Source: a virus
Taxonomy: Duplodnaviria; Caudoviricetes
Length of the DNA: 53,111 bases
IMG/VR virus record: IMGVR_UViG_3300025141_014934
Span: 1-53,111 of that record
Strand: one strand, 5' to 3'
Position numbers and translations under genes: made by a program. Shown here in pieces: positions 32,391 to 53,111 of this stretch (positions are counted from its first letter, which is position 1; each line of letters opens with the position of its first letter). Under the pieces are notes generated by a model. That model ran no database searches and was not told the DNA's origin. It was given only the letters and a program-made list of their open reading frames with translations.

Positions 32391-33217
32391 TATAAGTCCC
32401 TTGTAATATCTATTAACCTAGATTTAGCGTGAAGCCCCGTCTGAATCAGGTGCCACTTATAGAGTTTGTGATTGTCGATACATCCCCACCGCGGAAAGGA
32501 TTGCAGTTTTGAAGCGCGTTGGTTCTTCTCCAAAAAACACTCATTGCTAAACTCGTCTTCGGCATTGCTTTCTGGCCAGCCGGTTGTGACAGCCTTGGTG
32601 TACTCACTGTCTACTTGGTAGTACTCAGTCACGCCGTGATACAGCGCACCAACTGTGTCCATATTTTCAGAATTGGAATAAAACCAATGATCAGCATATC
32701 CGTGATTTGTCTGATTCCAGAATGCACTATACATGTAATCCATGTCCAGCGCAGGGTTGAAGTTCATGTCTGTGGCATAATATTTTTGAGGGTGTTCCTT
32801 GCCGCGGGTACCTAAATCAAATCTCGCCGCCACGACACAATCGTAACGAAAGCCGTTTTCCTCTTCGTGTTGTTTTTTGATCTCTATCGAGCGCATGCGA
32901 GAATACAAAAAACTTAATCCACGAAAAATAGTATTTGTACGATACATCGTGCTTTCACGGTCAAAACCGGAGTTAAACCAGTTCTCATCAAATCTCTTTA
33001 ATTCCTCTTTGAAATCTTTTTGCTTCTCATATTGAGAAATCACAGGAGCATATGTGGTTTCGATTTTTTCTTTATTATCTAAATCCCAGCTATGAACAAA
33101 GATGTCCACATCCCCTTTCTCCAAGACCTTTCGCGTGATATAAGAAATTGCTTCGTCCGAAGCTTTGGCGCCGCCAGCATTGGCATAGTATCCGTGTAAG
33201 CAAAGTGCTATTTTCAT
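32390..33217 (-). CDS. Putative glycosyltransferase-like protein
   Basis: MKIALCLHG, DIFVHSW and YDCVVAARFD, as seen in phage and capsule-cluster glycan proteins. Confidence 0.55.
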   Translation of the reverse strand: MKIALCLHGYYANAGGAKASDEAISYITRKVLEKGDVDIFVHSWDLDNKEKIETTYAPVISQYEKQKDFKEELKRFDENWFNSGFDRESTMYRTNTIFRGLSFLYSRMRSIEIKKQHEEENGFRYDCVVAARFDLGTRGKEHPQKYYATDMNFNPALDMDYMYSAFWNQTNHGYADHWFYSNSENMDTVGALYHGVTEYYQVDSEYTKAVTTGWPESNAEDEFSNECFLEKNQRASKLQSFPRWGCIDNHKLYKWHLIQTGLHAKSRLIDITRDL

Positions 33218-33831
33218 CGTACGTTTATATCCTTAAATAAATCAAATTCTGTCAAATCGCGATAAGGTGGATCTTCTGGTAAGTCCTCCACATGCTCAGG
33301 GTAGTTCTGCATTAGCATCAAACCCCGGCATGCCTGCTCTGGGCTCATATACATGTTCCATCCCTCCTCAACAATGTTGTCCTCGTGGTAGGGCACGGTG
33401 CCTCGGCCTTCATATCTAGCCTTTTTGTACCAGTCGACAGCTTCTCTATTATCAGCTAAGATCATACCACCCTTTCCAATCTTAAGATGCTTCTTAATAT
33501 GAAAACTCAAGCACATGGTGCTCTGGGGAATATACATTTCCGAGGTAAGTCTCTTCGCTGCGTCATAAATGGGGAATGGCTTAAGTTGATAGATACCCTT
33601 CCACGCAACGTCCTCGAACTGTAGCTTTCCGCCGGCTTGGAGTATGGATTGTGGTGGCGAAAGGTACGTTCTTTTTGGAATTATAACCTCTTGTCCCTCA
33701 ATCTTATGGTATTTGCATGCCAAAAAAATAGCGTTTGTGCAACTATTGACTGACACCGCATAGGGAGCGCCGGTGTAATGAGCGATCTCTTCCTCAAACA
33801 TCTGGACTATTTTGTAGGGGTTATGAAGCAT
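33214..33831 (-). CDS. DegT/DnrJ/EryC1/StrS-family PLP aminotransferase (short form)
   Basis: FEEEIAHYTGAPYAVSVNSCTNA, DAA and SFHIKKHL.IGKGGM; only 205 aa. Confidence 0.8.
   Translation of the reverse strand: MLHNPYKIVQMFEEEIAHYTGAPYAVSVNSCTNAIFLACKYHKIEGQEVIIPKRTYLSPPQSILQAGGKLQFEDVAWKGIYQLKPFPIYDAAKRLTSEMYIPQSTMCLSFHIKKHLKIGKGGMILADNREAVDWYKKARYEGRGTVPYHEDNIVEEGWNMYMSPEQACRGLMLMQNYPEHVEDLPEDPPYRDLTEFDLFKDINVR
33813..33831 (-). repeat. 19-bp direct repeat, copy 1 (start of aminotransferase gene)
   Basis: Plus strand tgtaggggttatgaagcat, identical to 34537-34555. Confidence 0.9.
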
Positions 33832-33832
33832 G

Positions 33833-34555
33833 CTATGTTATCTTCCTATTTACTAAGAACAAATTTGTTTCTTGTTCTAACTCCCTAACAGTGATTGGGT
33901 TTGATAATGAGTGTAGCTCAAGGGCGCCTGCTGGGGCGAGGGGAGAAATGTGGTAAAACTTTTGAAGGCGCTTTAAAAGCCTTCTCTTTCTCTCCTGACC
34001 AAAAAATGTATGGATTTCCATCACTATGATGGAGACTTTCTCGTAATCGTCAAAGTTTTCCAATATCTCATATTCGCTACCTTCGCAATCTAGCTTGAGA
34101 TAATTAATCCGTGGAAGTTGCAACGTTTCCAACATGTCTTTTAATGAGACTGTTTTGCACCCTTCTTCGAGTTCCACGAATCCATATTTATCCTGTTCCA
34201 AATCAGCGCAACTTATGTCTTTAGAGTGACCCTCTTTGTGGGATTTAAGCGGCAAATCCAGTGCACTGGTGCCATAAACCGCCATGTTATAGGTCTGTAC
34301 ATTTCTAATCTCTAGCTGCTCAAGTACTCGGGTTAGTATGTTGTAATTGTCCCTGAGCGGCTCAAAAGCGTATATTTGTTCGAAAAAGGCACTAGCATGC
34401 ACACAAAACCCACCAACATTTGCCCCGATATCCACTGCAACAGGTAGTCTTGTCTGGACCATAGGGTATGAGCTTCTGCACTCTCTTATACTTTCTTTGA
34501 CCCACTCTTCTATACCTTCGGGAGTAGCGAGATTCCTGTAGGGGTTATGAAGCAT
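33833..34555 (-). CDS. FkbM-family methyltransferase
   Basis: VDIGANVG, AFEP, LKLDCEGSEY. Confidence 0.88.
   Translation of the reverse strand: MLHNPYRNLATPEGIEEWVKESIRECRSSYPMVQTRLPVAVDIGANVGGFCVHASAFFEQIYAFEPLRDNYNILTRVLEQLEIRNVQTYNMAVYGTSALDLPLKSHKEGHSKDISCADLEQDKYGFVELEEGCKTVSLKDMLETLQLPRINYLKLDCEGSEYEILENFDDYEKVSIIVMEIHTFFGQERKRRLLKRLQKFYHISPLAPAGALELHSLSNPITVRELEQETNLFLVNRKIT
34537..34555 (-). repeat. 19-bp direct repeat, copy 2 (start of FkbM gene)
   Basis: Plus strand tgtaggggttatgaagcat, identical to 33813-33831. Confidence 0.9.
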
Positions 34556-35264
34556 CCGGAACCTTCGAAATCAGTATATTACCCGCACCCTCATTGCTGG
34601 ACTTCGAACTCTTCTTAAATTTGTATTTTTTGTTAATGCTCTTTATCCGGCGTTTAAGAGTTGGTAGCTTTCCTGGGTATATCTCTTCAAACTGATGGAT
34701 ATCATCGATCATGATCGTATGTTCCTTGATATTGTGCGCTTTAATCGCTTCAAGCTCTTTAAAAATGGGGAATAACTCTTCGGCAGGAGAATCCTCTGTA
34801 AGATCGCTATTGATGTCGGGGCCCCAGTGGGCATCAAGCCAAAAGGTAGCTTTGTCGGCAATGTTCTCCAAAACGCGAGGGAGAGTGTCCCCACTATCTC
34901 CCCGATAGAGGCTTATTCGGACCTGATTCATAAAACTTACACTAAAATAATCCTCCCTGGCAGTCGTCTCAACTAGAATGTCAGGGTTTGCTATGGCCAG
35001 TAGGGTGATTTTTAACTTCGCAGCCAAAAAGTGAGGTTTACTAAGCTCAATAGAATGAATATCTCGGGCGCCTAGAATAAGGGCAGACATAACCCCGTGT
35101 CCAAAAAACGTGCCCGTCTCAACAAACGTGGTCTCTATGTCCGCAGAGTCCCATATGAGATGTTTCTTGTGCTCCTCCAAATCAAATAAAATATATTTGA
35201 TATCTGCATTATAACCGTGGCGAGTAAGACCAGCGATCGCTATTGATTTCGGTACTGTTATCAT
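34545..35264 (-). CDS. SAM-dependent methyltransferase-like protein
   Basis: FVETGT..G.G, SIEL, GDS, FWLDAH, IDD. Confidence 0.7.
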   Translation of the reverse strand: MITVPKSIAIAGLTRHGYNADIKYILFDLEEHKKHLIWDSADIETTFVETGTFFGHGVMSALILGARDIHSIELSKPHFLAAKLKITLLAIANPDILVETTAREDYFSVSFMNQVRISLYRGDSGDTLPRVLENIADKATFWLDAHWGPDINSDLTEDSPAEELFPIFKELEAIKAHNIKEHTIMIDDIHQFEEIYPGKLPTLKRRIKSINKKYKFKKSSKSSNEGAGNILISKVPDAS

Positions 35265-35266
35265 GT

Positions 35267-36046
35267 TTATATCCTTTCTCCTTTTTCCAATAAATGCATA
35301 TAATATAAATGCTTATAATATTTCTTATTGACAGCGAACACATTATCTAATTCGCGGAACTCACCGATGCGGTCATTTATAGATCTACTGGGCAACTTTT
35401 CATCAAATTGGATGCGCCCGTCCCACAATTCAAATAAGTAAAAGTGATTGCATAGCTCATCAAGAAGGCTTTGCTTACGCTCAAATCCGTAGTAGTTATG
35501 AAGCTCCATAGCTATGAACGTTATTTTGTCACAATCCTGTAAGCCTTCTAAGATATCATACTCGCCGCCTTCACAATCCAGCTTTAGATAATCAATTCTG
35601 TCTATTTCAAGTTTTTCGAAAATCTGGTTTAGGCTAGTAGTCTCACACGTTTCTCCAGTATCCTGCAGCGTTATCCCTTCTCCTATCTGTTGCAGACATG
35701 TAATGTTGCCCGAGAATAACTCAGAATGAGATGGGTGTTTCAACTTAACTAATCGGCCGGGGTGGGCTGTGACAGCCAGATTAAACAATTGAATATTGTT
35801 AAGGCGTAATTGTTCAAAAACCTGTAGTGCAACTCCGCAATTCTGCGTGGAGGGTTCAAAGGCGTAGATTTTTTCGAAGTGCTTATGGGCGTGCACGCAG
35901 AACCCCCCTACGTTTGCCCCTATATCTACAGCGGTCGGAAGAAGAACGCCATTAAAAAGAGGATAAGAAGTCTTACATTCGGCAATACTCTCATATATCC
36001 ACTTTTTTAATTCCTCATCAGATTTGAAATTTTTAAACTTTTTCAT
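35267..36046 (-). CDS. FkbM-family methyltransferase (paralog of 33833-34555)
   Basis: VDIGANVGGFCVHA, AFEP, LKLDCEGGEY. Confidence 0.88.
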   Translation of the reverse strand: MKKFKNFKSDEELKKWIYESIAECKTSYPLFNGVLLPTAVDIGANVGGFCVHAHKHFEKIYAFEPSTQNCGVALQVFEQLRLNNIQLFNLAVTAHPGRLVKLKHPSHSELFSGNITCLQQIGEGITLQDTGETCETTSLNQIFEKLEIDRIDYLKLDCEGGEYDILEGLQDCDKITFIAMELHNYYGFERKQSLLDELCNHFYLFELWDGRIQFDEKLPSRSINDRIGEFRELDNVFAVNKKYYKHLYYMHLLEKGERI

Positions 36047-36432
36047 CCCCTATCCAGCAAGTAGTATTTCTTTACAAACCCACAACTTTCAAACAGTCTC
36101 AGGCTTGCTTCGTTATCTAGCTTAATTTTGGCCACACAATCAGGATGCAGTTTCACCACTTCATTAACCATGAATTTCCCGATTCCTCGACGTTGAAAAT
36201 CAGGGTGTGTCGCAACCCCGATATCATCCCCCATCACCCGTATGAAGCCGGCCGGGGTGTCGTCAGCCACACAAATATAGAATTTTTCTCCATGTGTCAT
36301 CATAAAACTTATATGTTGTTCAGGCTCAATATACTCTTGCTGTATAAACCCAGGAAGTGAGCGGGGGTCATTACGTAAATTTCTTATAAACTCCCAATAT
36401 TTGGATTCATTTTTAACGAGTTCTAGGCGCAC
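36043..36432 (-). CDS. GNAT N-acetyltransferase (PseH-like)
   Basis: RNLRND, HPDFQRRGIG, NEASLRLFESCGF. Likely start is GTG at 36432, since the track's longer start overlaps the upstream gene by 88 nt. Confidence 0.8.
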   Translation of the reverse strand: MRLELVKNESKYWEFIRNLRNDPRSLPGFIQQEYIEPEQHISFMMTHGEKFYICVADDTPAGFIRVMGDDIGVATHPDFQRRGIGKFMVNEVVKLHPDCVAKIKLDNEASLRLFESCGFVKKYYLLDRG

Positions 36433-37205
36433 GACTTGTATATATCTCCAAGCGGCTGCCCTTTCCAATACGCTTTTAGGTAATCCCTCTCTAGTGAAAG
36501 GTCGAGCCACTTGTGGAGTGTTGTCCCTATATCAATATAACTGTTTTTGGCGGATAATTTAAACAATTTGTGAATTAGTATCTCACTTAAGCTACTAGCC
36601 GAGAAGAGAAACACGTGTTCTTCTACATTGTTTTCTGTAACCCAGTCCGAAATCTCCTCAATCAAGTGGTGATCATTGACAATGCAGTTTTTTCCTACCC
36701 TAAAGTCTTTTGTAACCTCGAACGGAAGGTTGTCGAATGTAGCGTTTTCACTACAAACCATGACTATCTTATGATTTTTAAACTCTGGGACGAAGTGATT
36801 GACGAATAAGGGATAATTGGCATTAACGAAAAGATTGGGAGTTGTCCAATGTTCTTCTCCGTTCTGATAATGTTCTTTGAGCCATGGTATGAACTCTCCT
36901 ATGGCACATGTGCAATTGGCGCAACCGGCGCCGACGAAATAGTTCTCCTTCTCGAATACGAAAGAATCAAACAATCCCTCCTTAACATGGGAATCACGCT
37001 CTGGTAAGAACTGTTTGTAGTCATCGGCTGAATATCCAAAGTTATACCGGATATCCCCCACCTCAACATGGTCAGCTTCTAAAACAACCTTCTTATTCTG
37101 CATAACGAAAACTTCACCATCAGAATATCGAGTGAAGGCAAAAGGTTCTCCATTCTTAAGCTTGTTTAGGAGTAGGAAAAAGTCTTCTATGTATCCTTTG
37201 GACAC
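36423..37205 (-). CDS. Putative GT-D-fold (DUF1792-like) glycosyltransferase
   Basis: FAFTRYSDGE and YIDIGTTL motifs. Confidence 0.55.
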   Translation of the reverse strand: MSKGYIEDFFLLLNKLKNGEPFAFTRYSDGEVFVMQNKKVVLEADHVEVGDIRYNFGYSADDYKQFLPERDSHVKEGLFDSFVFEKENYFVGAGCANCTCAIGEFIPWLKEHYQNGEEHWTTPNLFVNANYPLFVNHFVPEFKNHKIVMVCSENATFDNLPFEVTKDFRVGKNCIVNDHHLIEEISDWVTENNVEEHVFLFSASSLSEILIHKLFKLSAKNSYIDIGTTLHKWLDLSLERDYLKAYWKGQPLGDIYKSCA

Positions 37206-37207
37206 TG

Positions 37208-38209
37208 CTATATTCCCTCAGCTACAAATATTTCCGCTATCTTCTTAGAGGTGTGTCCGTCACCGTAGGGGCACGGCTCGTCGGGGTCTGGAACAGGCTG
37301 TTCATAGGCCCACGAGAAAGCTGCTGGCAGTTCATCCGGGGTGGGGCATAATGTAGAGAACACTCCCATTCCTTCAACGCGCTCGGTGGTCTTTCGACAC
37401 ACAATGCACTTCTTTCTAAAGAATGATGACTCTTCCTGAAGTCCTCCGCTATCTGTTATGACAAAACGGCTCTGGGAAAGCAGCTTGACGAAGTCTTCGT
37501 ATCCCATAGGATCGACGACACGGACATTTTCAAAGATATCCTTGTGTTTATAAACATTTGGGTTGGGGTGGATAGGCAAAATGAATTCTAGATCGGGGTT
37601 TTGTGCAGCTAAGCTGTCAATAGTCTCAAACCACTCTTTAATCAGTGGGTGGTTTTCCCTTCGGTGCATTGTTATAACAATTTTATTGCTATATTCTGGC
37701 TCAATTTCAACGATGTTGTCTAAAACAGTATTACCAACCACATATACCTTCCCTGATATGCGTTCTTTTGCTAGATTGGCGGCTGACTCTTCCGTGGGGC
37801 ATAGGTTGATGTCGGCTAATCGAGATACTGCCTGTCTATTAAACTCCTCCGGATATGGATTTTGCAGATCATAGGTGCGCAAACCTGCCTCAAGATGGAC
37901 CACTTTTAACTTTCTGTGAAACGCAGCTAATGCAATTGCAAAGGCAGAAGAAGTGTCACCCTGTATCAACACACTCGTCACTCCTTCAAAGACTTCATCA
38001 GAATTCATTATAGAAGAAACAATCGAATCTAAGCGATTTGTGCCATCCTCAATTTGTAACCTTCTTACAGTACTGTCTGAAACGTGAGCCAAAAGATCTT
38101 CATGTTGTCCTGTAAAAAGAAGAACGTGCTCGATCTTTCCCTGTAGCTCTTCGATTAATGGCTTGATCTTGATGTATTCTGGACGTGTTCCAAAACTTAT
38201 AAGCAGCAT
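37208..38209 (-). CDS. wecB: UDP-N-acetylglucosamine 2-epimerase
   Basis: GTRPE.IK, TGQH, QGDT, HLEAGLR, PEE.NR, HRREN, TDSGGLQEE, PYGDG. Confidence 0.92.
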   Translation of the reverse strand: MLLISFGTRPEYIKIKPLIEELQGKIEHVLLFTGQHEDLLAHVSDSTVRRLQIEDGTNRLDSIVSSIMNSDEVFEGVTSVLIQGDTSSAFAIALAAFHRKLKVVHLEAGLRTYDLQNPYPEEFNRQAVSRLADINLCPTEESAANLAKERISGKVYVVGNTVLDNIVEIEPEYSNKIVITMHRRENHPLIKEWFETIDSLAAQNPDLEFILPIHPNPNVYKHKDIFENVRVVDPMGYEDFVKLLSQSRFVITDSGGLQEESSFFRKKCIVCRKTTERVEGMGVFSTLCPTPDELPAAFSWAYEQPVPDPDEPCPYGDGHTSKKIAEIFVAEGI

Positions 38210-38210
38210 A

Positions 38211-39806
38211 TTACTTCTCCTGATCTTTTACTAACGTCCACCCACGAGCGATAGCAGTGCTTACGCAATAATCCCTCTCGGAAAAGAAAGCATGATGGCT
38301 TAAGCTCGAATTGGTGGAGGTTGCTTTATCGTCAATCCCTAATTCATTACCTAAGATAGAACCGTGAAGTTCTTTATCGTCGGGAGGATGAGGCGGGCAA
38401 TAGGTGTTAATGTTTCCGTATTTCTGTGCAGTATATGAGAACTGCATATCTTCACCGTTGTCCCAAGTAATGGGGGCTTCGGCCCACAAGTACTTTAACC
38501 AGTCTCGTTTAAAAAACCATGCGTGCCCCACCAGATCAACCTGTGTTATTTCTGGATTGTGGGTTGGCCAACCGCAGCGCTGATGTGGATTATAAGTATC
38601 TCCCTGAAGAATGACGCCGGCTGATCCTAGGATACCTTCATGGGTCTCCATGGTGCTTAGGCAGTTCTCAAGCCATCGCGAGCCTGGAATTGTGTCGTCG
38701 TCGAATATAGCAATATGCTCTGTCTCTGCCAGGAGCGCTCCCGCAAACCTTCCGTAGAACTTCCAATTATGGTCATTCCTGAACACCTTATCAGAATCTA
38801 TTTGAGTGAAATCAAACCCGTTGAGATCTTCGTGATCGTTAACCCATACCCAGATTTGTTTTGGAGGTCTTGTCTGTTCTCTTATTGCTTTGATTTGCGC
38901 ATCCAAATTATAAGGGCGTCTATAGGCGTTTAGGATAACCGTGATGTCTTCATACGGAGAACGCCTATCCGACAAAAAGGCTGATGTGAACAATCCAGCG
39001 ATTTCGTATCGAGCATTTCTAATATGTTCAATCAATTCTGCGCCCTTCAATGAAAACCATTCCTCGCTCGTGGCGCCAATCAGGGCGTTGGTATATATCT
39101 TGCACCCCAGCATCTTTGCTTCCACAACAACGCGGCTCATCGTCTCCATGACCCCGGGGAAGAATGCAAAACTATCGCATTCACTCAACTCTTTGATGAA
39201 CCCCTCATGGGTACTCGGGGGGATTAGTTTGTACTCATGCCCCTGCTGCTTACAGAATCGTATAGCGCCTTCAGTGTTCTTTACACTGTTTGGCGAGTCC
39301 ATAATACCACATAGTGCCTTTTTGGGGGAGTCTAGATACTTCTCTATAACGCGCAGATGCTCCTCGGGCCAAGGGTTGCCGCCGGCATTGACGATATTCC
39401 TCAAGCCTGTGTTTTTATGCATTACGTCTGCATGCATCTTGCTTTGACACACGACTGCGACGGCGCTGCGATAGAATTCTTGATTGATGACCTGATCTCT
39501 TGGAGCCTGCAGATCTGGGAAAACAGACGGGTCACGCGTTTTTAAGTACTTGTGATCGTGCTCATAAATCACATACCTCTCGCTCTGCAAACGACGACGG
39601 GACGCAGGAGATAAATTTAAAAAATTGCCAACGATGAAGTTGCAACCCGCATGCTCTTCAATAAAGGGCAATGTAACCATATGACTATGAATTCTGATCG
39701 ACTCACCGTCTTGTGAGGCTGACAGGGCTCTTAGTACTTCATCGTTAACAATCTCTCCGCCGCCGGGAACATCTTCTTTAAAAAAGTCAGCTATTAAAAC
39801 ATACAT
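38211..39806 (-). CDS. Two-domain glycosyltransferase (GT-B-like + GT2/GT-A)
   Basis: N-terminal GGGE...ETMSRVVVEAKMLGC; C-terminal ITVILNAYRR...FDDDTIPG...GED. Confidence 0.78.
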   Translation of the reverse strand: MYVLIADFFKEDVPGGGEIVNDEVLRALSASQDGESIRIHSHMVTLPFIEEHAGCNFIVGNFLNLSPASRRRLQSERYVIYEHDHKYLKTRDPSVFPDLQAPRDQVINQEFYRSAVAVVCQSKMHADVMHKNTGLRNIVNAGGNPWPEEHLRVIEKYLDSPKKALCGIMDSPNSVKNTEGAIRFCKQQGHEYKLIPPSTHEGFIKELSECDSFAFFPGVMETMSRVVVEAKMLGCKIYTNALIGATSEEWFSLKGAELIEHIRNARYEIAGLFTSAFLSDRRSPYEDITVILNAYRRPYNLDAQIKAIREQTRPPKQIWVWVNDHEDLNGFDFTQIDSDKVFRNDHNWKFYGRFAGALLAETEHIAIFDDDTIPGSRWLENCLSTMETHEGILGSAGVILQGDTYNPHQRCGWPTHNPEITQVDLVGHAWFFKRDWLKYLWAEAPITWDNGEDMQFSYTAQKYGNINTYCPPHPPDDKELHGSILGNELGIDDKATSTNSSLSHHAFFSERDYCVSTAIARGWTLVKDQEK

Positions 39807-39815
39807 ACAACATCA

Positions 39816-41102
39816 TTATTCAAATGTTTGGACTTGTGCAAACTCAGACCGCGACGGCTCTTCAGCTTCTTCCTCTCCCCATGTAGCATCAGCAAATATC
39901 TTGCTTTGATTCTCAAAAGAAAACCTTTCCGTGATATATTTCTTGAGTTTCTTGGCGGTGGTGCGCTTCGTCTTGATATTTTTTAGGGTATCTCGTAAAG
40001 CCTTTTTATACGCATTCTCGCGTGGGAATGCCCAAAGGGCCTCCTTTATAATCACACCCTCCCAGAGGGCTTCGTCCTGAACTGGCGAAAGGTTATAATC
40101 AACTCGCGTAAAGTGACGTTTAGATTTAATCTTGTCTGATCCTTTTTTCTTGGTCGGAGCGTATAAAAAGTCTAGCTGCCCTCCCCAATCTATGGTAACA
40201 ACGGGCAGTCCAGTGCAAGCAGCCTCAAACAGGGGGAGCCCAAACCCTTCGCCATGAGCGATGTTGACCAGGGCGGTCATCTTTGGATGTGCATAAAGTC
40301 CGTGAAGCTCTTGCTCGCTCATCTCTCCGTGCACTACATAAATCTGACATTTGATGTCTTCTGCAGCCAGTTTTGTGTTCTTAACAATGTTTTGGACCAG
40401 CTTCACAGTTCTTTCATGATCGATAATTGATGTATCAGCACAGAAAGTCTTCAAAACAAACCCCACATCGGGATCATCCTTAAATTCCTCAACAAACCAT
40501 CTTATAGTGTTTTCAAGGTTCTTCCTGGGTCCGTTCTGAGCTACAAACAAGAAGTTTGAATTCGTCTCTAGCTCAATCTCCGGTACCTCTGGAGTAATCT
40601 CTCGTACGGGGAAGTTCGCTACCGTGATGGGAGTCTCGCATTTATAATTGGGAAGAACCTGCCCGGTCTGCTTATTTTTGGCATAATATTCCGTGTTCTC
40701 AAAACCGAATTTTGCGTGATTGGAGACAACAATAATCTTATCCATCATATTGGCTTTCTCCACCCATACGGGGGCAATTTTGCTACACTCAATTCCTGCT
40801 GTAAAGCCGATGTTGCAAGTTGCAATTCTCTCCCACTCGTTAGGAATCGTAACCTGGATAGATATATCGTACCTCGGGTTAGGCTGTTCGTTCGTAACGA
40901 TGGTCTTATGAATCAAGTGGTCAATCCAGCGACGCTCTTCGTCATCAAGCGCCAGCCAACTGGTCTGGCCCCACCCCACATTAATGAGAAAAATGTTGAA
41001 TTTCTCCTCATGTGCCCTTAAAGATCGAAGGGCGAACCTAGTCTGCTCTCCATAACCGCTGCGTGATAGAGCCGGTCCTCGGACTATTACTTTTTTTCTC
41101 AT
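39816..41102 (-). CDS. GT4-family glycosyltransferase
   Basis: SGYG, RKN, HGEGFGLPLFEA. Confidence 0.85.
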   Translation of the reverse strand: MRKKVIVRGPALSRSGYGEQTRFALRSLRAHEEKFNIFLINVGWGQTSWLALDDEERRWIDHLIHKTIVTNEQPNPRYDISIQVTIPNEWERIATCNIGFTAGIECSKIAPVWVEKANMMDKIIVVSNHAKFGFENTEYYAKNKQTGQVLPNYKCETPITVANFPVREITPEVPEIELETNSNFLFVAQNGPRKNLENTIRWFVEEFKDDPDVGFVLKTFCADTSIIDHERTVKLVQNIVKNTKLAAEDIKCQIYVVHGEMSEQELHGLYAHPKMTALVNIAHGEGFGLPLFEAACTGLPVVTIDWGGQLDFLYAPTKKKGSDKIKSKRHFTRVDYNLSPVQDEALWEGVIIKEALWAFPRENAYKKALRDTLKNIKTKRTTAKKLKKYITERFSFENQSKIFADATWGEEEAEEPSRSEFAQVQTFE

Positions 41103-42373
41103 GCTGCTACCTTAATCCTTTCAAAGCGCCAACTCTTATAGTTCTTCCTGGTGTCCCAAGAACCGTTGGTTTCAATAATTTCCTGCATAAGTTCGTCCCA
41201 AACCTCCATGGTTTTATCAAAATTATAATTCTTCATAACATATTTGCGGCCGCGTGCACCCATGGCGTCCCGCTGCTTCTTGGTTTTGTTAAACATCTTT
41301 ACCAAAGCTTTAACCACTATCTCTTCAGAAAGTCGGTCTTCATAAATCATAGGGATATCTTGAGATCCTATAATAGCCTTAGACGTGGGTTCCATGCCAA
41401 TGCCAAACCAACTCTTTCCGTCTGTCACCTGCTCCTGCAACCCTCCGGTCATATTAACAATGATGGGCGTACCACAGGCTAGCGACTCCATGGTTGAGAG
41501 TCCGAAACCTTCCGCATCTGAAACGTTTATGGTACAGTCTGCCATATTATAGATTAGGGCCAACGTTTTTTGATCAAGTTTTTGTGTTGACAACATCACC
41601 TCCCCGTTGTTCATCCCAAGGTTCTTAAGAAGGTACTCTAGGTTTTGACCATGCATATCGTTTGGATCGGTGTGCATAATGAGAAGTGCTTTATCACGAC
41701 CAACCTTGTCCAGAAAAGTCTTAAACCAATAGATCAAGGACCCACTCTGTTTCCGGCGGGCGTTACGGTTATTCCAGAAAAAGACAACTCGGTCTTCTGG
41801 GAAGTTGGTACCGGCGAGGCTGTCACTCTTGAAACTATTTACCTCTTCGTCAGGATACGGCTGAAATATATCCGGAACGACGTGCCCAATGCGCGTGCAG
41901 GGTACGTCCGGGGAGACCGTGCGGACAAGATCGTCGGTTACTTTTGAAATTGTAACGATGTGGTCATTAGAATCATAATACTTCTTGTTGAACATGGGAT
42001 AAGGGTAATTATCCCACACGTGGTGATACACCATGGGACACAGTGGACGTATTTCGTTTTCAATCTCCCACAACCATCGCCAAAAGCGTGGATCAGTCAT
42101 AAACCAGACTACATCTGGTTTTTCTGCACGGAGGATCCCCCGTACAACCTCTTTGGTACCATACCCATCAATGGGATGGATGACCCAATCGTCGCCCCAT
42201 TCCTCAGTCTTAACAGCATTGTAGTTTTCGTGTTTTATGGCGCCGCCGAGAGAAAAGAATTGATAGCGGCCGGTTTTAAGGAGCCCCTCAATAAAATATC
42301 TAGTTTGAGTTCCCACGCCGGAGGGTGATAGTGGATGGTCTCCGAGCGTCAGTATCTTATGTTTCTTAGTCAT
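41099..42373 (-). CDS. GT4-family glycosyltransferase
   Basis: NRNARRK, SDAEGFGLSTMESLACGTP. Confidence 0.87.
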   Translation of the reverse strand: MTKKHKILTLGDHPLSPSGVGTQTRYFIEGLLKTGRYQFFSLGGAIKHENYNAVKTEEWGDDWVIHPIDGYGTKEVVRGILRAEKPDVVWFMTDPRFWRWLWEIENEIRPLCPMVYHHVWDNYPYPMFNKKYYDSNDHIVTISKVTDDLVRTVSPDVPCTRIGHVVPDIFQPYPDEEVNSFKSDSLAGTNFPEDRVVFFWNNRNARRKQSGSLIYWFKTFLDKVGRDKALLIMHTDPNDMHGQNLEYLLKNLGMNNGEVMLSTQKLDQKTLALIYNMADCTINVSDAEGFGLSTMESLACGTPIIVNMTGGLQEQVTDGKSWFGIGMEPTSKAIIGSQDIPMIYEDRLSEEIVVKALVKMFNKTKKQRDAMGARGRKYVMKNYNFDKTMEVWDELMQEIIETNGSWDTRKNYKSWRFERIKVAA

Positions 42374-44147: not shown

Positions 44148-44435
44148 CTACGTCGGGGGGGGAGTTTCTTCGGTGGAGGTGTCTTCCTCGTTAGCTGTAG
44201 AATCCTCTAAGCCTTGGGCGTAGCCCCGCATCCAATTTTCCTCGGCCACAGTTAGAAGAAACTCAGGGAATTCCGATGCAAATGTGTTGATCGTCATCTC
44301 CAAAGTCACTTCTTCGTTTTCTGGATCCAGTTTATCTCCGACATAATTTACAACCAGTTCTTTCAAGCCTGTTGTTCCTATTATCTTTTCTTCTAATGCT
44401 GGGTTTGTTTCCAGTTCTTTTATTTCTTTTGTCAT
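44148..44435 (-). CDS. Hypothetical protein
   Basis: 95 aa acidic ORF coupled to phoH. Confidence 0.7.
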   Translation of the reverse strand: MTKEIKELETNPALEEKIIGTTGLKELVVNYVGDKLDPENEEVTLEMTINTFASEFPEFLLTVAEENWMRGYAQGLEDSTANEEDTSTEETPPPT

Positions 44436-45748
44436 AATACCTTCGATGCCAGTGTTGCTACTCGGGAACGCTCTCCCTTTTTGAGTGTAATATGACCAGA
44501 TAAATCGTGTGTTTTGAATTTTTCAATAGCATAGGTTAGACCATTTGAGGTCTCGTCTATGTATGCATTGTCAATCTGTTCCACGTCTCCGGTCAATATG
44601 ATTTTGGTTCCTTCACCGACTCTTGTAATTATAGTCTTTAATTCGTGACTTGTTAAGTTTTGTGCCTCATCTATTACAATATAAGCATTCGCAATTGAGC
44701 GGCCGCGGATATAGGTTAGTGCTTCGATTTCGATGAGCCCCTTATCAACGTACATATCCAACACATCTTTGTCATTTCCCATCAAGTATTTTAAATTGTC
44801 CTCGATAGGAGCTAACCATGGAGTCATTTTCTCTTCTAGTGTCCCTGGAAGGTATCCGATGTCTTTCCCGAGTGGCTGAACAGGGCGGGATACTACCAGG
44901 CGACTGTATCTTTTTTGTTCTAACACTTGTTCTAACCCAGAAGCGATCGCCATTAGCGTTTTACCACAACCAGCCTTGCCAACTAGAGTTACAATGGGGA
45001 TATCCGGATTCATCAATAGATCGAGCCCAAACGACTGCTCTTTGTTGCGAGGACGGACACCCCATACACCGTCCTTACTGAATTGGGTTACCTTTTGCAG
45101 AGGTGTTGCATGATCTGCGAATCTTGCCAACGCTGTTTTTTTAGAATTTGCACTCGAAACCAACATGATAAACTGGTTAGGGTTTAGGCTGAACTCATCT
45201 TTATCTATGATAACCGGTTCGCTACTGTAATAACGGTCTACCAACTGATCATCTACCAAGAGGTTAGAAAATCCGTCATATAGCTCATCGATATGATCAA
45301 CAATCTGGTTGTCTACGTAATCCTCGCACAATATCCCTAGGGCATCACACTTTACGCGCATGTTTATGTCTCTAGAAACTAGAACCACCTTTTTGCGAGG
45401 AGAGGTTTCCATTTCTTTGAGAGCAACGCCTATGATCTCGTTATCGGCGTTTCCGGTGGGGAAGTCTGTTGGGAGGGTCGATGCGCCGTCGTAAGGGACC
45501 GCCCTAGCATTCCCAAGGCTCTTTCCTATACGCACCCCTTTACGTAAGCTTCCGGCGCTTCTAAGCTCATCTAGAGCCCTAATCGTGCGTCGAGCGTTTG
45601 TGCCCACACCATCTTGACGCTTCTTGTGCTTGTCAATTTCCTCCAACACCTTGAGTGGGATAACAATATCGTTGTTTCCGTAGCATTTTATTGAATTGGA
45701 GTCCGTCAAGTAGACGTTTGTATCTAGAATATATGTCTTCTTTGCCAC
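44432..45748 (-). CDS. phoH: PIN-domain PhoH-family ATPase
   Basis: PIN motif ILDTNV; Walker A GKAGCGKT; GYLPG, RGRS, DEAQN, GD..Q.D. Confidence 0.92.
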   Translation of the reverse strand: MAKKTYILDTNVYLTDSNSIKCYGNNDIVIPLKVLEEIDKHKKRQDGVGTNARRTIRALDELRSAGSLRKGVRIGKSLGNARAVPYDGASTLPTDFPTGNADNEIIGVALKEMETSPRKKVVLVSRDINMRVKCDALGILCEDYVDNQIVDHIDELYDGFSNLLVDDQLVDRYYSSEPVIIDKDEFSLNPNQFIMLVSSANSKKTALARFADHATPLQKVTQFSKDGVWGVRPRNKEQSFGLDLLMNPDIPIVTLVGKAGCGKTLMAIASGLEQVLEQKRYSRLVVSRPVQPLGKDIGYLPGTLEEKMTPWLAPIEDNLKYLMGNDKDVLDMYVDKGLIEIEALTYIRGRSIANAYIVIDEAQNLTSHELKTIITRVGEGTKIILTGDVEQIDNAYIDETSNGLTYAIEKFKTHDLSGHITLKKGERSRVATLASKVL

Positions 45749-48580: not shown

Positions 48581-48609
48581 AATATACCAGATTAAAAACC
48601 AAATGTCAA
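48581..48609 (-). promoter_or_regulatory. Sigma70-type promoter
   Basis: TTGACA-17 nt-TATATT with TG extended -10, ending 8 nt before the tRNA-like RNA. Confidence 0.8.
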
Positions 48610-49634: not shown

Positions 49635-49718
49635 TGGTAGGGAAGGCGGGATTTGAACCCGCAAGCCCGGGGGCGGGAGATTTTAAGTCTCCTGTGTATG
49701 CCATTCCACCACTTCCCC
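49635..49718 (-). tRNA. tRNA-Leu (anticodon TAA)
   Basis: GGGGAAG/CTTCCCT acceptor, D-loop GGAATGGCATAC, GGAGA-CTTAAAA-TCTCC anticodon arm, long variable arm, GCGGG-TTCAAAT-CCCGC, encoded CCA. Confidence 0.95.
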
Positions 49719-49731
49719 AAATCATAGTAAT

Positions 49732-49760
49732 ATAATACACGGTTTGAGGAACGGTGTCAA
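49732..49760 (-). promoter_or_regulatory. Sigma70-type promoter
   Basis: TTGACA-17 nt-TATTAT just upstream of tRNA-Leu. Confidence 0.8.
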
Positions 49761-49768: not shown

Positions 49769-50998
49769 CTAAAATTGTTCTTCTTCTGTCGAGCCGTCTA
49801 GGGCTAACGTAGAAGAGTCCTGAGATATTGTTTGAGCAACTAAGTCAAAATAGCCTGTTCCCACTTCTCTCTGATGCTTTGTTGCTGTGTATCCGTGTTT
49901 CTCAGATTCAAACTCTTTCTCTTGAAGTGCCGAATACGCAGACATGTCTCTCTTCTCATAATCGCGGGCCAACTCAAACATGTTGTAGTTCAGGTTATGA
50001 AAACCGGCGAGGGTAATGAATTGAAATTTATATCCCATCGCCCCAAGTTCTCGTTGGAACTTAGCAATTGTGCTATCGTCTAGGTTTTTCTTCCAGTTGA
50101 ACGATGGCGAGCAATTATATGCTAGCATTTTATTGGGATACTTGTCGTGAATAGCCTCAGCAAACTGCTTAGCTTCATCTAAATCTGGCTTTCCAGTCTC
50201 GCACCACAACAAATCAGCATATGGGGCGTACTGGAGTCCCCGATTGATAGCCATATCAATACCGCCATAAATATGTCGGAAACCCTCGCTAGTAATATTT
50301 CCAGAACAAATGAATGGGGTATCCTCACGATCAACGTCAGACGTTAGCAGCCTGGCACTGTTGGCGTCAGTGCGAGCGATAAGTACCGTGGGAGTATTCA
50401 TGACGTCTGCCGCTAATCTAGCTGCAATAAGCTTCTTAATGAACTCAGAAGCCGGAACAAGTACTTTTCCTCCCAGATGACCGCACTTCTTAGCAGAACT
50501 AAGCTGGTCTTCAAAGTGTACGCCTGCTGCTCCTGCTCGAATCATTGACTTCATCAGTTCAAATGCATTTAAGGGGCCGCCGAAGCCAGCCTCAGCGTCG
50601 GCTATGATAGGAGCAAACCACTCACGTTGAGTTTGGCAGTTATTCTCAAGCCACTCAACCTGATCTGCTCGACGAAAAGCGTTATTGATCTTTTGTACAA
50701 GCATCGGGACGCTGTGAGCGGCGTACAGGCTTTGATCAGGGTACATCTCGTGTGAATCATTTGCATCGGCAGCTACCTGCCAGCCTGAACAGTAGATTGC
50801 TTCCATCCCAGCCTTTACCATTTGCATAGCCTGGTTGCCCGTCACAGCCCCCATGGCGTGCACATAGGGCTTGGACTCTAATAGTCCCCAAAGTGTCTCA
50901 GCAGCCCTTGTGGCCACTGTATAGCTCTCCTGTATTGAACCTCTCAGTCGTAATACGTCTACAGATGAGTATGGTCTGATGATATCGTCGTTTCTCAT
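49769..50998 (-). CDS. aceA: Isocitrate lyase
   Basis: [24 protein letters not shown], catalytic [33 protein letters not shown]. Confidence 0.97.
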
Positions 50999-52503
50999 AG
51001 TAATTCATAAGCCTTTATAGTTAAAAAATCATCTAATGTTTCGTTTAAGCAGAAGTTCCTTAACAATCCAGTTGCTTCTTCGGTACTGGAAACTTCTTCA
51101 CTTACCTCGTCCAGCACCTCGTTGAAATAATCGGGCGTCACGACTTGGTATGTATCCAGTACTACGTCATACTTCAGCCATTGCCAAATCTGTGCTCTTG
51201 ATATCTCTGCTGTCGCAGCATCTTCCATCAGATTGTTTATTGGGACACACCCATTTCCTGCTAGCCACGAATTCAAATAACGGAGTGAGACTTCAATGTT
51301 CTTACGTAGTCCAAATTCGGTAAACGTTCCTTTCGGGGGTTTTACTAAATCCTCCTCGAAAGCTGTATTTTCTGTCTGTCGGCTAATTTGGTTCGGAGTT
51401 GGCATATGCTCGTCAAAAATCTCTTTTGCAATTTGTACTAATCCTGGATGTGCAACCCAGGTTCCGTCATGTCCATTTTGGACCTCCCGCAGTTTATCTT
51501 CTCTAACTTTGTTTAAAGCCCTCTCATTGGACTCAGAATCGTTTTTAATGGGGATTTGAGCCGCCATACCTCCCATGGCGTGAACACCCCTACGATGGCA
51601 CGTGTGTACCAGCAAATCGCTATATGTACGCATGAAGGTCTGAGTCATCGTAACTTGGTCCCGATCTGGTACCAAACAGGCTGAATCTCCGTGTAAAGTT
51701 TTGATATAACTAAAGATATAGTCCCATCGACCACAGTTGAGTCCAGCAGAGTATTCACGGAGGGCATAAATGATTTCATCCATCTGGAATGCTGCTGGCA
51801 GCGTCTCTATAAGTACTGTTGCACGGATGGTACCATGCTCAATCCCTAATTCTCTCTCAGAGAAGGCAAAGATATCGGCCCAAAGTTGTGCTTCGTGGAA
51901 ATGTTCCAGTTTTGGAAGGTAGAAATAAGGGCGTGTTCCCTGTTCTATTAGTGATGCAGCGTTGTGAAAGAAATACAATCCAAAATCAAATAATGAGGCT
52001 GGAATAGCTTCGCCATTATGAGTCAAGTGCTTCTCGGTTAGGTGCAGCCCGCGGGGGCGAACGAATAATGTGGCTGTTTCACTATTTAGTTTATAGTGTT
52101 TGTTCTTTACATTATCGTGATACTCAATTGTCTTTACGGCTGCGTCGCGAAGATTAACCTGTCCTAGGATGCAATTTTCCCATGTTGGTGAGTTTGAATC
52201 CTCGAAGTCAGCCATAAAGACGTTAGCCCCAGAATTCATAGCATTAATGATCATCTTTCGATCAACCGGTCCCGTAATCTCAACTCGCCGATCTAAAATA
52301 TCCTCAGGAATTGCAGCTGCTGTCCAATCATCCTCACGAATTGACTGTGTGGCTGAGAGAAATGTTGTCTTTGAGCCAGTTTTGCGCAGATTCAATAGAT
52401 TTTTAATCTTTTGGCCGTAACCCTCAGTTAACTTAGTTAAGAATTCGAGGGCTTCTGGGGTGAGAATCTGCTCACATTCAGGGATATGCTTTAAGATCTT
52501 CAT
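50995..52503 (-). CDS. aceB: Malate synthase A
   Basis: [70 protein letters not shown]. Confidence 0.97.
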
Positions 52504-52506
52504 TTA

Positions 52507-53111
52507 TTATCTCCGAAAAGGGAGTACCAATGGCTGTGGGAGCAAAACGTTACACCCCGTCAATTCCTCTCCAGAGCCCACCACATCGGTCTTTCCCACT
52601 TCCTCGCATTCTGCGGCGTTGACGAAACCTACTGCCCCGTTCGCGCAATAATCGTCCGGACTCCACTCAGATACGTCTGAGATTCCATTGCCGTCCATAT
52701 CAAAGTCACACTCGTCCCCAATGCCGTCTCTATCTGAGTCGATTTGGTGGTGATTGTAGACGGAGATACAATTATCTGCATGGTCATTAACACCGTCGTT
52801 GTCATGATCCGTTACACACTGCATGTTTTTGGTATAGTCACGACGGTGAAGGAGTGGGCACTCGTCAACTAGGTCTAAAACCCCGTCATTATCATCATCA
52901 GAATCGCAGACATCGCCCCAACCGTCACCGTCGGTGTCAGTTTGACTTGGATTTCCCACATCTGAGCAATTATCTTCAGAATTAATTACCGAGTCTCCGT
53001 CTAGATCCTCGTCGCAAGAATCCCCAAGACCATCAGCGTCCCTATCAAATTGATTTGGATTCCAACTAGTGCGGCAGGTGTCGCATGCGTCGCCCCAACC
53101 ATCTGAGTCTA
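52507..53111 (-). CDS. Thrombospondin type-3 repeat (Ca-binding) protein, 5' partial
   Basis: Frame is open to the right edge: DSDGWGDACD..C....NPNQ.D.DADGLGDSCD, DNC..V.NP.Q.D.DGDG.GD.CD repeats. Confidence 0.88.
   Translation of the reverse strand, partial: DSDGWGDACDTCRTSWNPNQFDRDADGLGDSCDEDLDGDSVINSEDNCSDVGNPSQTDTDGDGWGDVCDSDDDNDGVLDLVDECPLLHRRDYTKNMQCVTDHDNDGVNDHADNCISVYNHHQIDSDRDGIGDECDFDMDGNGISDVSEWSPDDYCANGAVGFVNAAECEEVGKTDVVGSGEELTGCNVLLPQPLVLPFRR

What the first reader, a model, noticed from the sequence alone, without database searches (positions are those of the whole stretch)
49769..52503. Complete glyoxylate shunt (aceB-aceA) in a phage genome
Seen: full-length malate synthase A and isocitrate lyase with intact catalytic motifs ([15 protein letters not shown]), coupled by an ATGA overlap. 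They sit between a TSP3 protein and a phage-type tRNA/small-ORF region, on the same strand as the baseplate genes, with no aceK or iclR in the window. Established: these two enzymes are sufficient to bypass the decarboxylating TCA steps. Inference: the phage rewires host carbon flux so acetyl-CoA (from lipids or acetate) feeds gluconeogenesis, which could supply nucleotides and its large sugar-nucleotide pathway. A two-enzyme operon of this kind is an unusual auxiliary metabolic module.
Basis: partly seen in the sequence, partly recalled or inferred. Interest (0 to 1): 0.8.

Follow-up and report, generated by a model that had tools for sequence, protein, structure and literature searches.

The report
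Glyoxylate-shunt gene pair in marine phage
A fragment of a large uncultured tailed phage really does carry intact genes for both glyoxylate-shunt enzymes, but the same gene pair has already been published for marine and huge phages, so this is a solid further example and not a discovery.

Summary
Minus-strand ORFs 50995-52503 (502 aa) and 49769-50998 (409 aa) score above NCBIfam's equivalog cut-offs for malate synthase A and isocitrate lyase. They align end to end with solved structures and overlap by ATGA. The window is an IMG/VR virus record, about 30% complete, with baseplate genes, a PIN-PhoH gene and a large sugar cluster. Thirteen of 79 other IMG/VR loci carry aceB directly before aceA. 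Four of five long ones also encode a T4-type Gp23 capsid protein, and there the pair lies inside replication and nucleotide-metabolism modules. The viral pairs form one clade apart from all sampled cellular sequences and are under strong purifying selection. No aceK or iclR occurs in 5 of 5 records. An aceBA operon in a 179-kb marine T4-like viral genome was published in 2017 (PMC5332604), and ICL/MS pairs in huge phages in 2025 (bioRxiv 10.1101/2025.02.27.640493). This scan found the pair before on other DNA. The metabolic role, host and timing are untested. Verdict: real, ordinary for its kind, low novelty.

The parts
50995..52503 (-). aceB, malate synthase A, 502 aa
   Evidence: TIGR01344 scores 731.6 bits (cut-off 594.5), with Pfam MS_TIM-barrel and MS_C hits. 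It aligns over residues 7-502 to solved malate synthase 3cux_A, E 1.7e-180. Motifs DFEDS, RPRG and CGRWDY are identical in 14 of 14 viral copies, and [10 protein letters not shown] in 13 of 14.
49769..50998 (-). aceA, isocitrate lyase, 409 aa (short N-terminus)
   Evidence: NF011645 scores 719.3 bits (cut-off 562), with a Pfam ICL hit. It aligns over residues 5-409 to solved ICL 6lrp_A, E 2.5e-187. [32 protein letters not shown] and SGWQ are identical in 14 of 14 viral copies.
50995..50998 (-). ATGA overlap of the aceB stop and the aceA start (translational coupling)
   Evidence: Read directly. In the 13 related loci the aceB stop and aceA start lie between -23 and +22 nt apart.
52507..53111 (-). 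3' end of a thrombospondin-type-3-repeat protein gene, open at the contig end; aceB follows 3 nt after its stop
   Evidence: Pfam TSP_3 E 1e-29 with 4 stretches. The junction was read. The homologous gene also sits at the end of the L003 contig.
52511..52514 (-). GGAG Shine-Dalgarno-like motif 7 nt before the aceB ATG, inside the end of the TSP3 gene
   Evidence: Read directly. No promoter-like site lies between the TSP3 gene and aceB.
49732..49760 (-). Near-consensus sigma-70-like promoter (TTGACA-17-TATTAT, 11 of 12) just after the aceA stop and before the tRNA
   Evidence: The total number of promoter-like sites in the region is not above shuffles (9 found against a mean of 10.8), so only the quality of this one site is notable.
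49635..49718 (-). tRNA-Leu (anticodon taa) directly downstream of aceA
   Evidence: ARAGORN. A tRNA-Leu(taa) also lies downstream of aceA in relative L003.

Best explanation
This is a genuine phage-encoded aceB-aceA operon: malate synthase A followed by isocitrate lyase, translationally coupled. It is carried by a large uncultured myovirus with T4-type structural genes, probably marine. Both enzymes look catalytically competent. In the infected cell, ICL would split host isocitrate into succinate and glyoxylate, and MS would condense glyoxylate with acetyl-CoA to malate. Carbon would then bypass the two CO2-releasing TCA steps and accumulate as C4 acids. The most likely benefit is anaplerosis during infection. 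Malate and oxaloacetate feed aspartate, and so purine and pyrimidine synthesis. Via PEP they also feed the sugar phosphates needed for nucleotides and for the phage's large sugar-nucleotide cluster. Shown here: gene identity, intactness, viral residence, conservation as a unit and purifying selection. Inferred: enzyme activity, the direction and size of the flux, and what the products are used for. The operon has no regulator of its own (no AceK, no IclR). It appears to be read through from the upstream TSP3 gene, so how isocitrate is won from host isocitrate dehydrogenase is unknown.
For: Identity: both proteins exceed NCBIfam equivalog cut-offs and align over nearly their whole length to solved ICL and MSA structures.

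Viral residence: the window is an IMG/VR virus record, about 30% complete. It has gp25-like and gp6-like baseplate genes, a PHROG-type PIN-PhoH (E 2.7e-115) and a PD-(D/E)XK exonuclease. Of 79 IMG/VR loci with an AceA relative, 13 have aceB directly upstream. Four of 5 long records among them encode Gp23 above Pfam's cut-off, and 3 of 5 hold a homologue of the window's gp6-like protein at 34-36% identity.

Phage genes flank the pair in relatives. L010 reads exonuclease-DnaB-RNR-NifU-ClpP-amidase-GS-like-aceB-aceA-ThyX...DnaE-ThyA. L015 reads gp32-RecA-exonuclease-DnaB-RNR-ClpP-aceB-aceA-M15 peptidase-ThyX. L003 reads TSP3-aceB-aceA-tRNA-Leu...DnaB-RNR-protease-SLT-adenylosuccinate synthetase.

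One viral lineage: the 14 viral pairs form one group in the AceA tree (155 rows; support 93, or 99 with L016), the AceB tree (31 rows; 99) and the concatenated tree (30 rows; 100), with the same sub-groups in each. The best cellular AceA among the 80 kept of 595 matches in the species-genome collection is 69% identical.

Selection: between the window and L003, AceA is 84% identical in protein while 80 of 110 fourfold-degenerate third positions differ, which is near saturation, and the NG86 dS is not computable.

Amelioration: the RSCU correlation of aceBA with the rest of the window is 0.61, against 0.34-0.81 for 9 control genes. GC and GC3 of both genes lie within about 1.1 sd of the other genes.

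The link to biosynthesis is suggested only by neighbours: RNR, ThyX, ThyA, a GS-like gene and PurA in relatives, and a roughly 19-kb sugar cluster in the window.
Against: No capsid, terminase or portal gene lies in the window itself, and the contig ends 0.6 kb upstream of aceB. The right-hand context of this very phage is therefore unseen, and a metagenome scan returned only relatives of 61% AceB identity or less.

No expression, host or activity data exist. The host is unknown, as it was for the published genome.

Without AceK, ICL may capture little isocitrate. In E. coli, ICL competes poorly with isocitrate dehydrogenase unless the latter is phosphorylated (recalled textbook knowledge, not tested here).

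The neighbourhood of the pair differs between phages: TSP3 and tRNA here, a replication module in L010 and L015, and glycosyltransferase and methyltransferase genes in L004. The gene-neighbour argument for a nucleotide link is therefore soft.

The viral AceA lacks about 20-28 N-terminal residues of cellular enzymes, with unknown effect.

One relative (G004) is classed 'provirus' by IMG/VR, although the 18 kb examined there is a phage replication module.
Confidence: 0.65

Rival explanations
1. Host-fitness factor during a lysogenic or pseudolysogenic phase. The phage keeps the shunt, together with cell-surface sugar genes, to help a carried host grow on two-carbon substrates, not to fuel lytic replication. 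This is the hypothesis offered by Nishimura et al. 2017.
For: It was proposed for the published aceBA virus, which like this window combines aceBA with polysaccharide genes (PMC5332604, section 17). One related record is classed 'provirus' by IMG/VR.
Against: No integrase, repressor or attachment site was seen in the window's Pfam and PHROG scans. The relatives have T4-type capsid genes and large lytic-style replication modules. The region examined in the 'provirus' record is all phage replication genes. The window covers only about 30% of the genome, so lysogeny genes could lie elsewhere.
Confidence: 0.1
2. Redox or iron-stress relief and not carbon supply. Diverting isocitrate through the shunt lowers NADH production, respiratory demand and oxidative stress, keeping a nutrient-limited or iron-limited host alive long enough to finish the infection.
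For: Host aceA and aceB are among the genes most induced in an infected Pseudoalteromonas, and the shunt is described as a general stress response (review PMC10452541, passage only). Relatives carry a NifU-like Fe-S assembly gene a few genes upstream of aceBA (L010), and phage C48C1 carries a NifU-like gene near its ICL. That the shunt is induced under iron limitation in marine heterotrophs is recalled, not searched here.
Against: Nothing in the sequence tells carbon supply from redox relief, and the two are not exclusive. The window itself has no NifU or antioxidant gene near aceBA.
Confidence: 0.15
3. Glyoxylate handling and not a full shunt. Malate synthase mainly consumes glyoxylate made by the host from glycolate, an algal exudate, or from purine breakdown, and ICL is secondary.
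For: Only the general point that MS alone suffices for glycolate assimilation (established biochemistry, recalled).
Against: ICL is the better conserved partner: 239 of 409 columns are invariant against 160 of 502 for AceB. ICL is also the one that occurs alone in many more phages. Forty-six ICL-only IMG/VR loci hold at least 1.6 kb upstream of aceA, and the 2025 preprint counts 98 ICL against 22 MS genes. The tight coupling of the two genes in 14 of 14 viral copies argues that they work as a pair.
Confidence: 0.05
4. Artefact: the pair is bacterial DNA joined to phage DNA by mis-assembly, or lies at a prophage or host boundary, or the window is a bacterial contractile-injection-system island and not a phage.
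For: The window holds no capsid or terminase gene. gp25-like and gp6-like baseplate proteins also occur in non-phage contractile systems (recalled). The contig breaks 0.6 kb from aceB.
Against: There is no compositional break at aceBA. The same gene order occurs in the separate record L003. An AceA identical or 99% identical to the window's is recorded on several contigs, the longest 84,355 bp (rows P0001-P0007). Homologues of the window's gp6-like protein lie in three records that also encode Gp23 and aceBA. The viral AceA and AceB form their own clade away from all sampled cells. The contig break falls in a repeat-domain gene in both the window and L003, which fits an assembly break, although no nucleotide tandem repeat was detected.
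Confidence: 0.03

Closest known systems
aceBA operon of the complete marine environmental viral genome TARA_ERS478052_N000008 (179 kb; Nishimura et al. 2017, mSphere, PMC5332604)
   Same: An aceB-aceA pair in a large uncultured marine virus with T4-like structural genes, plus a set of LPS/capsule sugar-biosynthesis genes; the host is unknown (section 17 read in full). The window shows the same combination.
   Different: The window's pair sits between a TSP3-repeat gene and a tRNA/small-ORF region. In the 178-kb IMG/VR relative L010 it sits between a GS-like gene and thyX. The window's nearest IMG/VR relative is only 84% (AceA) and 64-65% (AceB) identical, so this is a separate lineage.
Isocitrate lyase and malate synthase genes of huge phages (Huge Phage Genome Collection preprint, bioRxiv 10.1101/2025.02.27.640493)
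   Same: ICL and MS are adjacent in phage genomes, and the MS-carrying phages come from marine, soil and plant-related habitats (passages). My IMG/VR survey shows the same imbalance: 13 loci with both genes against 66 with ICL only in the DNA held.
   Different: That study concerns genomes of 200 kb or more. CheckV's 30% estimate for this 53-kb record implies roughly 175 kb. Its Supplementary Table 10 could not be opened, so overlap with this lineage is unknown.
Escherichia coli aceBAK operon with IclR control
   Same: The gene order aceB then aceA, and the same two enzyme families. The enterobacterial enzymes (Salmonella records in the phage collection) are 61% (AceA) and 50% (AceB) identical. 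The solved E. coli-type chains 1igw (ICL) and 3cuz (MSA) match at E 1.2e-160 and 2.5e-155.
   Different: No aceK and no iclR in 5 of 5 viral records. There is no promoter-like site directly before aceB. The genes overlap by ATGA, and AceA is shorter at the N-terminus.
Phage C48C1 (GenBank OQ984149.1, 156 kb, circular, filed under Kyanoviridae)
   Same: A complete deposited phage genome with an ICL homologue (56% identity over 98% of the query), near DnaB-like helicase, NifU-like and endolysin genes, an order like that around aceBA in L010.
   Different: No malate synthase match anywhere in that record. The ICL is annotated 'hypothetical protein'. It falls outside the aceBA clade on a long branch. 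A full-text search for the name found no paper on it.

Membership tests
Isocitrate lyase (EC 4.1.3.1; NCBIfam NF011645 / TIGR01346, Pfam PF00463) | Score above the curated equivalog cut-off, and better than the sister families (methylisocitrate lyase, PEP mutase) | tested here: met
   NF011645 scores 719.3 bits (cut-off 562) and TIGR01346 541.3 (cut-off 275.9). The prpB models score 105.2 and 82.7 bits, far below their cut-offs.
Isocitrate lyase (EC 4.1.3.1; NCBIfam NF011645 / TIGR01346, Pfam PF00463) | Signature KKCGH loop with the catalytic cysteine, and the acidic metal-site motifs (roles recalled from the literature) | tested here: met
   KKCGH lies at residues 170-174. [13 protein letters not shown] and NCSPSFNW are present and identical in 14 of 14 viral copies, and aligned to the same motifs in solved ICL 6lrp_A.
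Isocitrate lyase (EC 4.1.3.1; NCBIfam NF011645 / TIGR01346, Pfam PF00463) | Enzyme activity: isocitrate to succinate plus glyoxylate | not testable with these tools
   Needs expression and assay.
Malate synthase A (EC 2.3.3.9; TIGR01344, Pfam PF01274 + PF20659) | Score above the curated equivalog cut-off, and A-type not G-type | tested here: met
   TIGR01344 scores 731.6 bits (cut-off 594.5). Malate synthase G models score 26-31 bits. The end-to-end match to MSA 3cux_A has E 1.7e-180.
Malate synthase A (EC 2.3.3.9; TIGR01344, Pfam PF01274 + PF20659) | Catalytic Asp in the [10 protein letters not shown] loop, Arg in RPRG, and metal ligands in the ET and RWDY motifs (roles recalled) | tested here: met
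   All are present in the window protein. RPRG, DFEDS and CGRWDY are identical in 14 of 14 viral copies, and [10 protein letters not shown] in 13 of 14.
Malate synthase A (EC 2.3.3.9; TIGR01344, Pfam PF01274 + PF20659) | N-terminal domain (Pfam MS_N, PF20656) | tested here: inconclusive
   There is no MS_N hit at E <= 0.001 in the window protein. However, TIGR01344 aligns from model position 1 at residue 13, and relative L004 does hit MS_N. The domain is divergent, not missing.
Enterobacterial-type regulated glyoxylate-shunt operon (aceBAK + IclR) | aceK (isocitrate dehydrogenase kinase/phosphatase) in the operon | tested here: not met
   PF06315 has 0 matches in 5 of 5 viral records, and the E. 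coli control rings.
Enterobacterial-type regulated glyoxylate-shunt operon (aceBAK + IclR) | IclR-family repressor | tested here: not met
   PF01614 has 0 matches in 5 of 5 viral records, and 8 control genomes ring.
Virus-encoded auxiliary metabolic gene (AMG) | Lies inside a viral genome with viral genes on both sides | tested here: inconclusive
   In the window, viral genes lie only on the downstream side, and the upstream side ends after a partial TSP3 gene. The feature is met in relatives L010, L015 and L004, and 4 of 5 long records hold Gp23.
Virus-encoded auxiliary metabolic gene (AMG) | Conserved and under purifying selection within a viral lineage | tested here: met
   A single viral clade in three trees. 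Synonymous sites are saturated while AceA stays 75-84% identical.
T4-like (Gp23-capsid) myovirus | Gp23-type major capsid protein and T4-type baseplate wedge | tested here: inconclusive
   The window has gp25-like and gp6-like baseplate genes but no capsid gene in its 53 kb. Gp23 is present in 4 of 5 long aceBA relatives.

The most novel reading that the evidence does not exclude
The aceBA pair is an old, virus-resident lineage. No cellular AceA above 69% identity appeared among the best 80 of 595 matches in 185,579 species genomes. The pair has been kept as a translationally coupled unit without any regulator. In several phages it lies beside nucleotide-precursor genes (RNR, ThyX, ThyA, a GS-like gene, PurA). 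It would act as an unregulated, phage-timed anaplerotic valve that turns host acetyl-CoA and isocitrate into the oxaloacetate and aspartate needed for DNA synthesis. It may even install a shunt in hosts that have none, which would make it the first demonstrated virus-encoded two-step central-carbon bypass.
Probability: 0.3. Interest if true: 0.5.

Novelty: new member of a known kind. Interest (0 to 1): 0.25.

Why it matters
Phage-encoded shunt enzymes would change how much carbon an infected marine bacterium respires as CO2 and how much it retains in biomass and virions, which bears on ocean carbon budgets. That idea is already in print (2013, 2017, 2025). This window adds one more well-supported lineage, and a clean comparative picture: one viral clade, the two genes inherited together, strong purifying selection, and no AceK or IclR. 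No one has yet shown activity, timing or host for any phage aceBA, and that experiment remains the valuable one.

Tried and rejected
1. Extending the contig to the right. A metagenome scan with AceB returned 80 loci, the best only 61% identical, so none belonged to this phage. IMG/VR's nearest relative L003 also ends in the TSP3 gene. The right-hand context of this lineage stays unknown.

2. Pairwise dN/dS by NG86. dS was not computable because of saturation in all 12 comparisons. I replaced it with a count of differing fourfold sites.

3. A donor for the viral genes. Myxococcota sit nearest in the AceA and AceB trees, but with weak support (83 and 90). In the concatenated tree the virus clade simply splits from all 16 cellular rows. 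Cellular sampling was narrow, being the 80 best AceA matches and mostly Burkholderiales. No donor is claimed.

4. The host. There is no evidence beyond binned-MAG labels on short contigs, such as 'Cytophagales bacterium' for a 79%-identical AceA on an 8-kb contig. I rejected that as too weak.

5. A tandem-repeat explanation for the contig break. TRF found no nucleotide repeat in 52000-53111, so the repeats are at protein-domain level only.

6. PHROGs. Neither AceA nor AceB matches any PHROG family at E <= 1e-5.

7. INPHARED phage records. Apart from C48C1, the matches were bacterial contigs, short unannotated fragments filed as phage, or 31%-identical genes in multi-contig records titled 'Acinetobacter phage MD-2021a'. 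I did not count them as phage carriers.

8. A full-text search for 'C48C1' found only an unrelated paper. The search 'glyoxylate shunt' + 'phage-encoded' + 'isocitrate lyase' found 3 papers, none reporting an assay of a phage enzyme (listing only).
Full report
**Observation.**
- ORF 50995-52503 (502 aa) scores 731.6 bits on NCBIfam TIGR01344, malate synthase A (cut-off 594.5).
- ORF 49769-50998 (409 aa) scores 719.3 bits on NF011645, isocitrate lyase (cut-off 562). Methylisocitrate-lyase and malate-synthase-G models fall far below their cut-offs (Pfam).
- Both align over almost their whole length to solved structures: ICL 6lrp_A at E 2.5e-187, and malate synthase 3cux_A at E 1.7e-180.
The roles of these motifs in catalysis are recalled from the literature, not tested.
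- The ATGA stop/start overlap is read directly.
- aceB begins 3 nt after the stop of a 5'-open TSP_3-repeat gene, with a GGAG 7 nt before its ATG.
- A near-consensus sigma-70-like promoter follows aceA (TTGACA-17-TATTAT, 11 of 12 matches). Then come tRNA-Leu(taa) and a run of small ORFs without family matches.
- No promoter-like site lies directly before aceB and no terminator-like site directly after aceA, so the pair is probably read through from the TSP3 gene.
- One qualification: AceA lacks about 20-28 N-terminal residues of cellular enzymes.

**Is it a phage?** The window is a 53,111-bp IMG/VR virus record that CheckV rates about 30% complete.
- Every ORF I took as a gene is on the minus strand.
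- It holds gp25-like and gp6-like baseplate wedge genes and two giant ORFs (2,443 aa, and more than 2,620 aa).
- It also holds a tail-lysin-like protein, a sugar-nucleotide and glycosyltransferase cluster of about 19 kb, a PD-(D/E)XK exonuclease, and a PIN-PhoH gene that matches a phage PhoH family at E 2.7e-115.
- It holds no capsid or terminase gene, so I tested residence through relatives.

**Relatives.** An IMG/VR scan with AceA gave 79 loci.
- In 13 of them (L003-L015; AceA 75-84% and AceB 52-65% identical) aceB lies directly before aceA. The gap ranges from -23 to +22 nt. Three pairs of these loci are identical, so 10 are distinct.
- In the other 66 no AceB match lies in the DNA held. 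For 20 of these, less than 1.6 kb lies upstream of aceA, so an upstream aceB cannot be excluded. L016, the sister of the aceBA clade, is one of them.
- Of five long aceBA records (75-267 kb), four encode a Gp23 capsid protein above Pfam's cut-off. Three hold a homologue of the window's gp6-like protein at 34-36% identity.
- In those records the pair lies inside phage replication and nucleotide-metabolism modules:
  - L010: exonuclease-DnaB-RNR-NifU-ClpP-amidase-GS-like-aceB-aceA-ThyX...DnaE-ThyA.
  - L015: gp32-RecA-exonuclease-DnaB-RNR-ClpP-aceB-aceA-M15 peptidase-ThyX.
- The nearest relative, L003, comes from a separate record. It repeats the window's order TSP3-aceB-aceA-tRNA-Leu(taa)-small ORFs, then DnaB, RNR, a trypsin-like protease, SLT and adenylosuccinate synthetase.
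- Its contig also ends in the TSP3 gene. That points to an assembly break in a repeat-domain gene and not to a genome boundary, although no nucleotide tandem repeat was found.
- aceBA shows no compositional break. GC and GC3 lie within about 1.1 sd of the other genes. Codon usage correlates with the rest of the window at r = 0.61, against 0.34-0.81 for nine control genes.
- An AceA identical or 99% identical to the window's is on record from several contigs, the longest 84 kb.

Chimera and prophage-edge readings therefore find no support. The right-hand side of this very phage remains unseen, because a metagenome scan gave nothing closer than 61%.

**Evolution.**
- In a 155-row AceA tree the 14 aceBA-virus rows form one group (support 93, or 99 with L016).
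- In a 31-row AceB tree they form one group (support 99) with the same sub-groups.
- In a 30-row concatenated tree they split from all 16 cellular rows with support 100. One very long cellular row, L141, was left out of that tree.
- The best cellular AceA among the 80 kept of 595 matches in the species-genome collection is 69% identical.
- Cellular sampling was narrow and the trees are unrooted, so no donor is claimed.
- Between the window and L003, 80 of 110 fourfold sites in aceA differ, near saturation, while the protein stays 84% identical. Six AceA motifs are identical in 14 of 14 copies. That is strong purifying selection on both genes, with AceB evolving faster.
- No AceK or IclR domain is found in 5 of 5 viral records, while the control genomes ring.

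**Mechanism.** The best-supported reading is that the phage supplies an unregulated glyoxylate bypass in the infected cell.
- ICL takes host isocitrate, and MS adds acetyl-CoA to the glyoxylate. C4 acids accumulate instead of CO2 being lost.
- The likely use is anaplerosis for aspartate-dependent nucleotide synthesis and, via PEP, sugar phosphates.
- This last step is inference from neighbours only: RNR, ThyX, ThyA, a GS-like gene and PurA in relatives, and the sugar cluster here. It is weakened by the fact that the neighbourhood differs between phages.
- How ICL would win isocitrate from isocitrate dehydrogenase without AceK is open (the E. coli branch-point argument is recalled).
- The rivals cannot be told apart by sequence. 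They are a host-fitness role in a carried state (the 2017 authors' proposal), redox or iron-stress relief, and glyoxylate scavenging.

**What is known.**
- Nishimura et al. 2017 (PMC5332604; section 17 read in full) described an aceBA operon in a complete 179-kb marine viral genome. That genome has T4-like structural genes and LPS/capsule sugar genes, and its host is unknown. This is the same picture as the window.
- Hurwitz et al. 2013 (PMC4053976; passages) reported aceAB in Pacific viromes.
- A 2025 preprint (10.1101/2025.02.27.640493; passages) counts 98 ICL and 22 MS genes in huge phages, adjacent in 20 genomes.
- A review passage (PMC10452541) repeats the virome report.
- This scan has met the pair before on other DNA and reached the same verdict.
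- I found no report of an assay of a phage enzyme. Searches; listings and the passages named above.
- The supplements that list the published genomes were closed, so I cannot say whether this lineage is already tabulated.

**Verdict.** It is a new member of a known kind, and interest is low to moderate.

Noticed in passing
IMG/VR loci L024-L063 and others (44 rows of the AceA tree); records G006, G008, G009, G010: A second, larger virus-only AceA clade (44 rows, support 98) sits beside Burkholderiales-type enzymes. It has no AceB match in the DNA held. Four of 5 long records from it (162-316 kb) encode Gp23. So ICL without malate synthase is the commoner state in large T4-like phages, as the 2025 preprint's 98-against-22 count also says.
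   Followed up: partly
L002 = GenBank OQ984149.1 44175-45416 (Phage C48C1): A complete 156-kb deposited phage genome carries an ICL homologue (56% identity) annotated 'hypothetical protein', with no malate synthase in the record. Its neighbours (DnaB-like helicase, NifU-like, endolysin) resemble the order around aceBA in L010.
   Followed up: partly
window 23243-42373 (-): A cluster of about 19 kb of sugar-nucleotide and glycan genes. It includes an NDP-sugar epimerase/dehydratase, two nucleotidyltransferase-like genes (one fused to RpiB), HAD phosphatases and a transketolase split into N-terminal and pyrimidine-binding ORFs. It also includes a PfkB kinase, a sulfotransferase, a truncated DegT-type aminotransferase, two FkbM methyltransferases, a GNAT, a UDP-GlcNAc 2-epimerase and three glycosyltransferases. 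The sugar made is unknown.
   Followed up: no
window 3-7862 (-) and 11636-18967 (-): Two giant ORFs flank the baseplate wedge genes. One, of more than 2,620 aa, has three Laminin_G_3/ConA-like lectin stretches and runs off the contig. The other, of 2,443 aa, has no Pfam or PHROG match at E <= 1e-5. They are probably fibre or host-recognition proteins.
   Followed up: no
window 44432-45748 (-): A PIN-domain nuclease fused to PhoH (438 aa) matches phage family phrog_2765 over its full length (E 2.7e-115).
   Followed up: no
L010 7422-8432 (+); L003 11672-12664 (+): Relatives carry further precursor-supply genes near aceBA. L010 has a short glutamine-synthetase-like gene immediately upstream of aceB, and L003 has an adenylosuccinate synthetase about 9 kb downstream. 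L010 also uses a DnaE-type (Pol III alpha) polymerase although its capsid is T4-type.
   Followed up: partly
record G004 (locus L015): IMG/VR classes this 102-kb aceBA record as a 'provirus'. The 18 kb examined around aceBA is a phage replication module, and the record encodes Gp23. The label may come from host-like metabolic genes and not from integration.
   Followed up: partly
window 48581-48609 (-) and 49732-49760 (-): Two near-consensus sigma-70-like promoters (11 of 12 matches each) lie in the small-ORF region downstream of aceA, one directly before tRNA-Leu. This resembles an early-gene region read by host polymerase.
   Followed up: no
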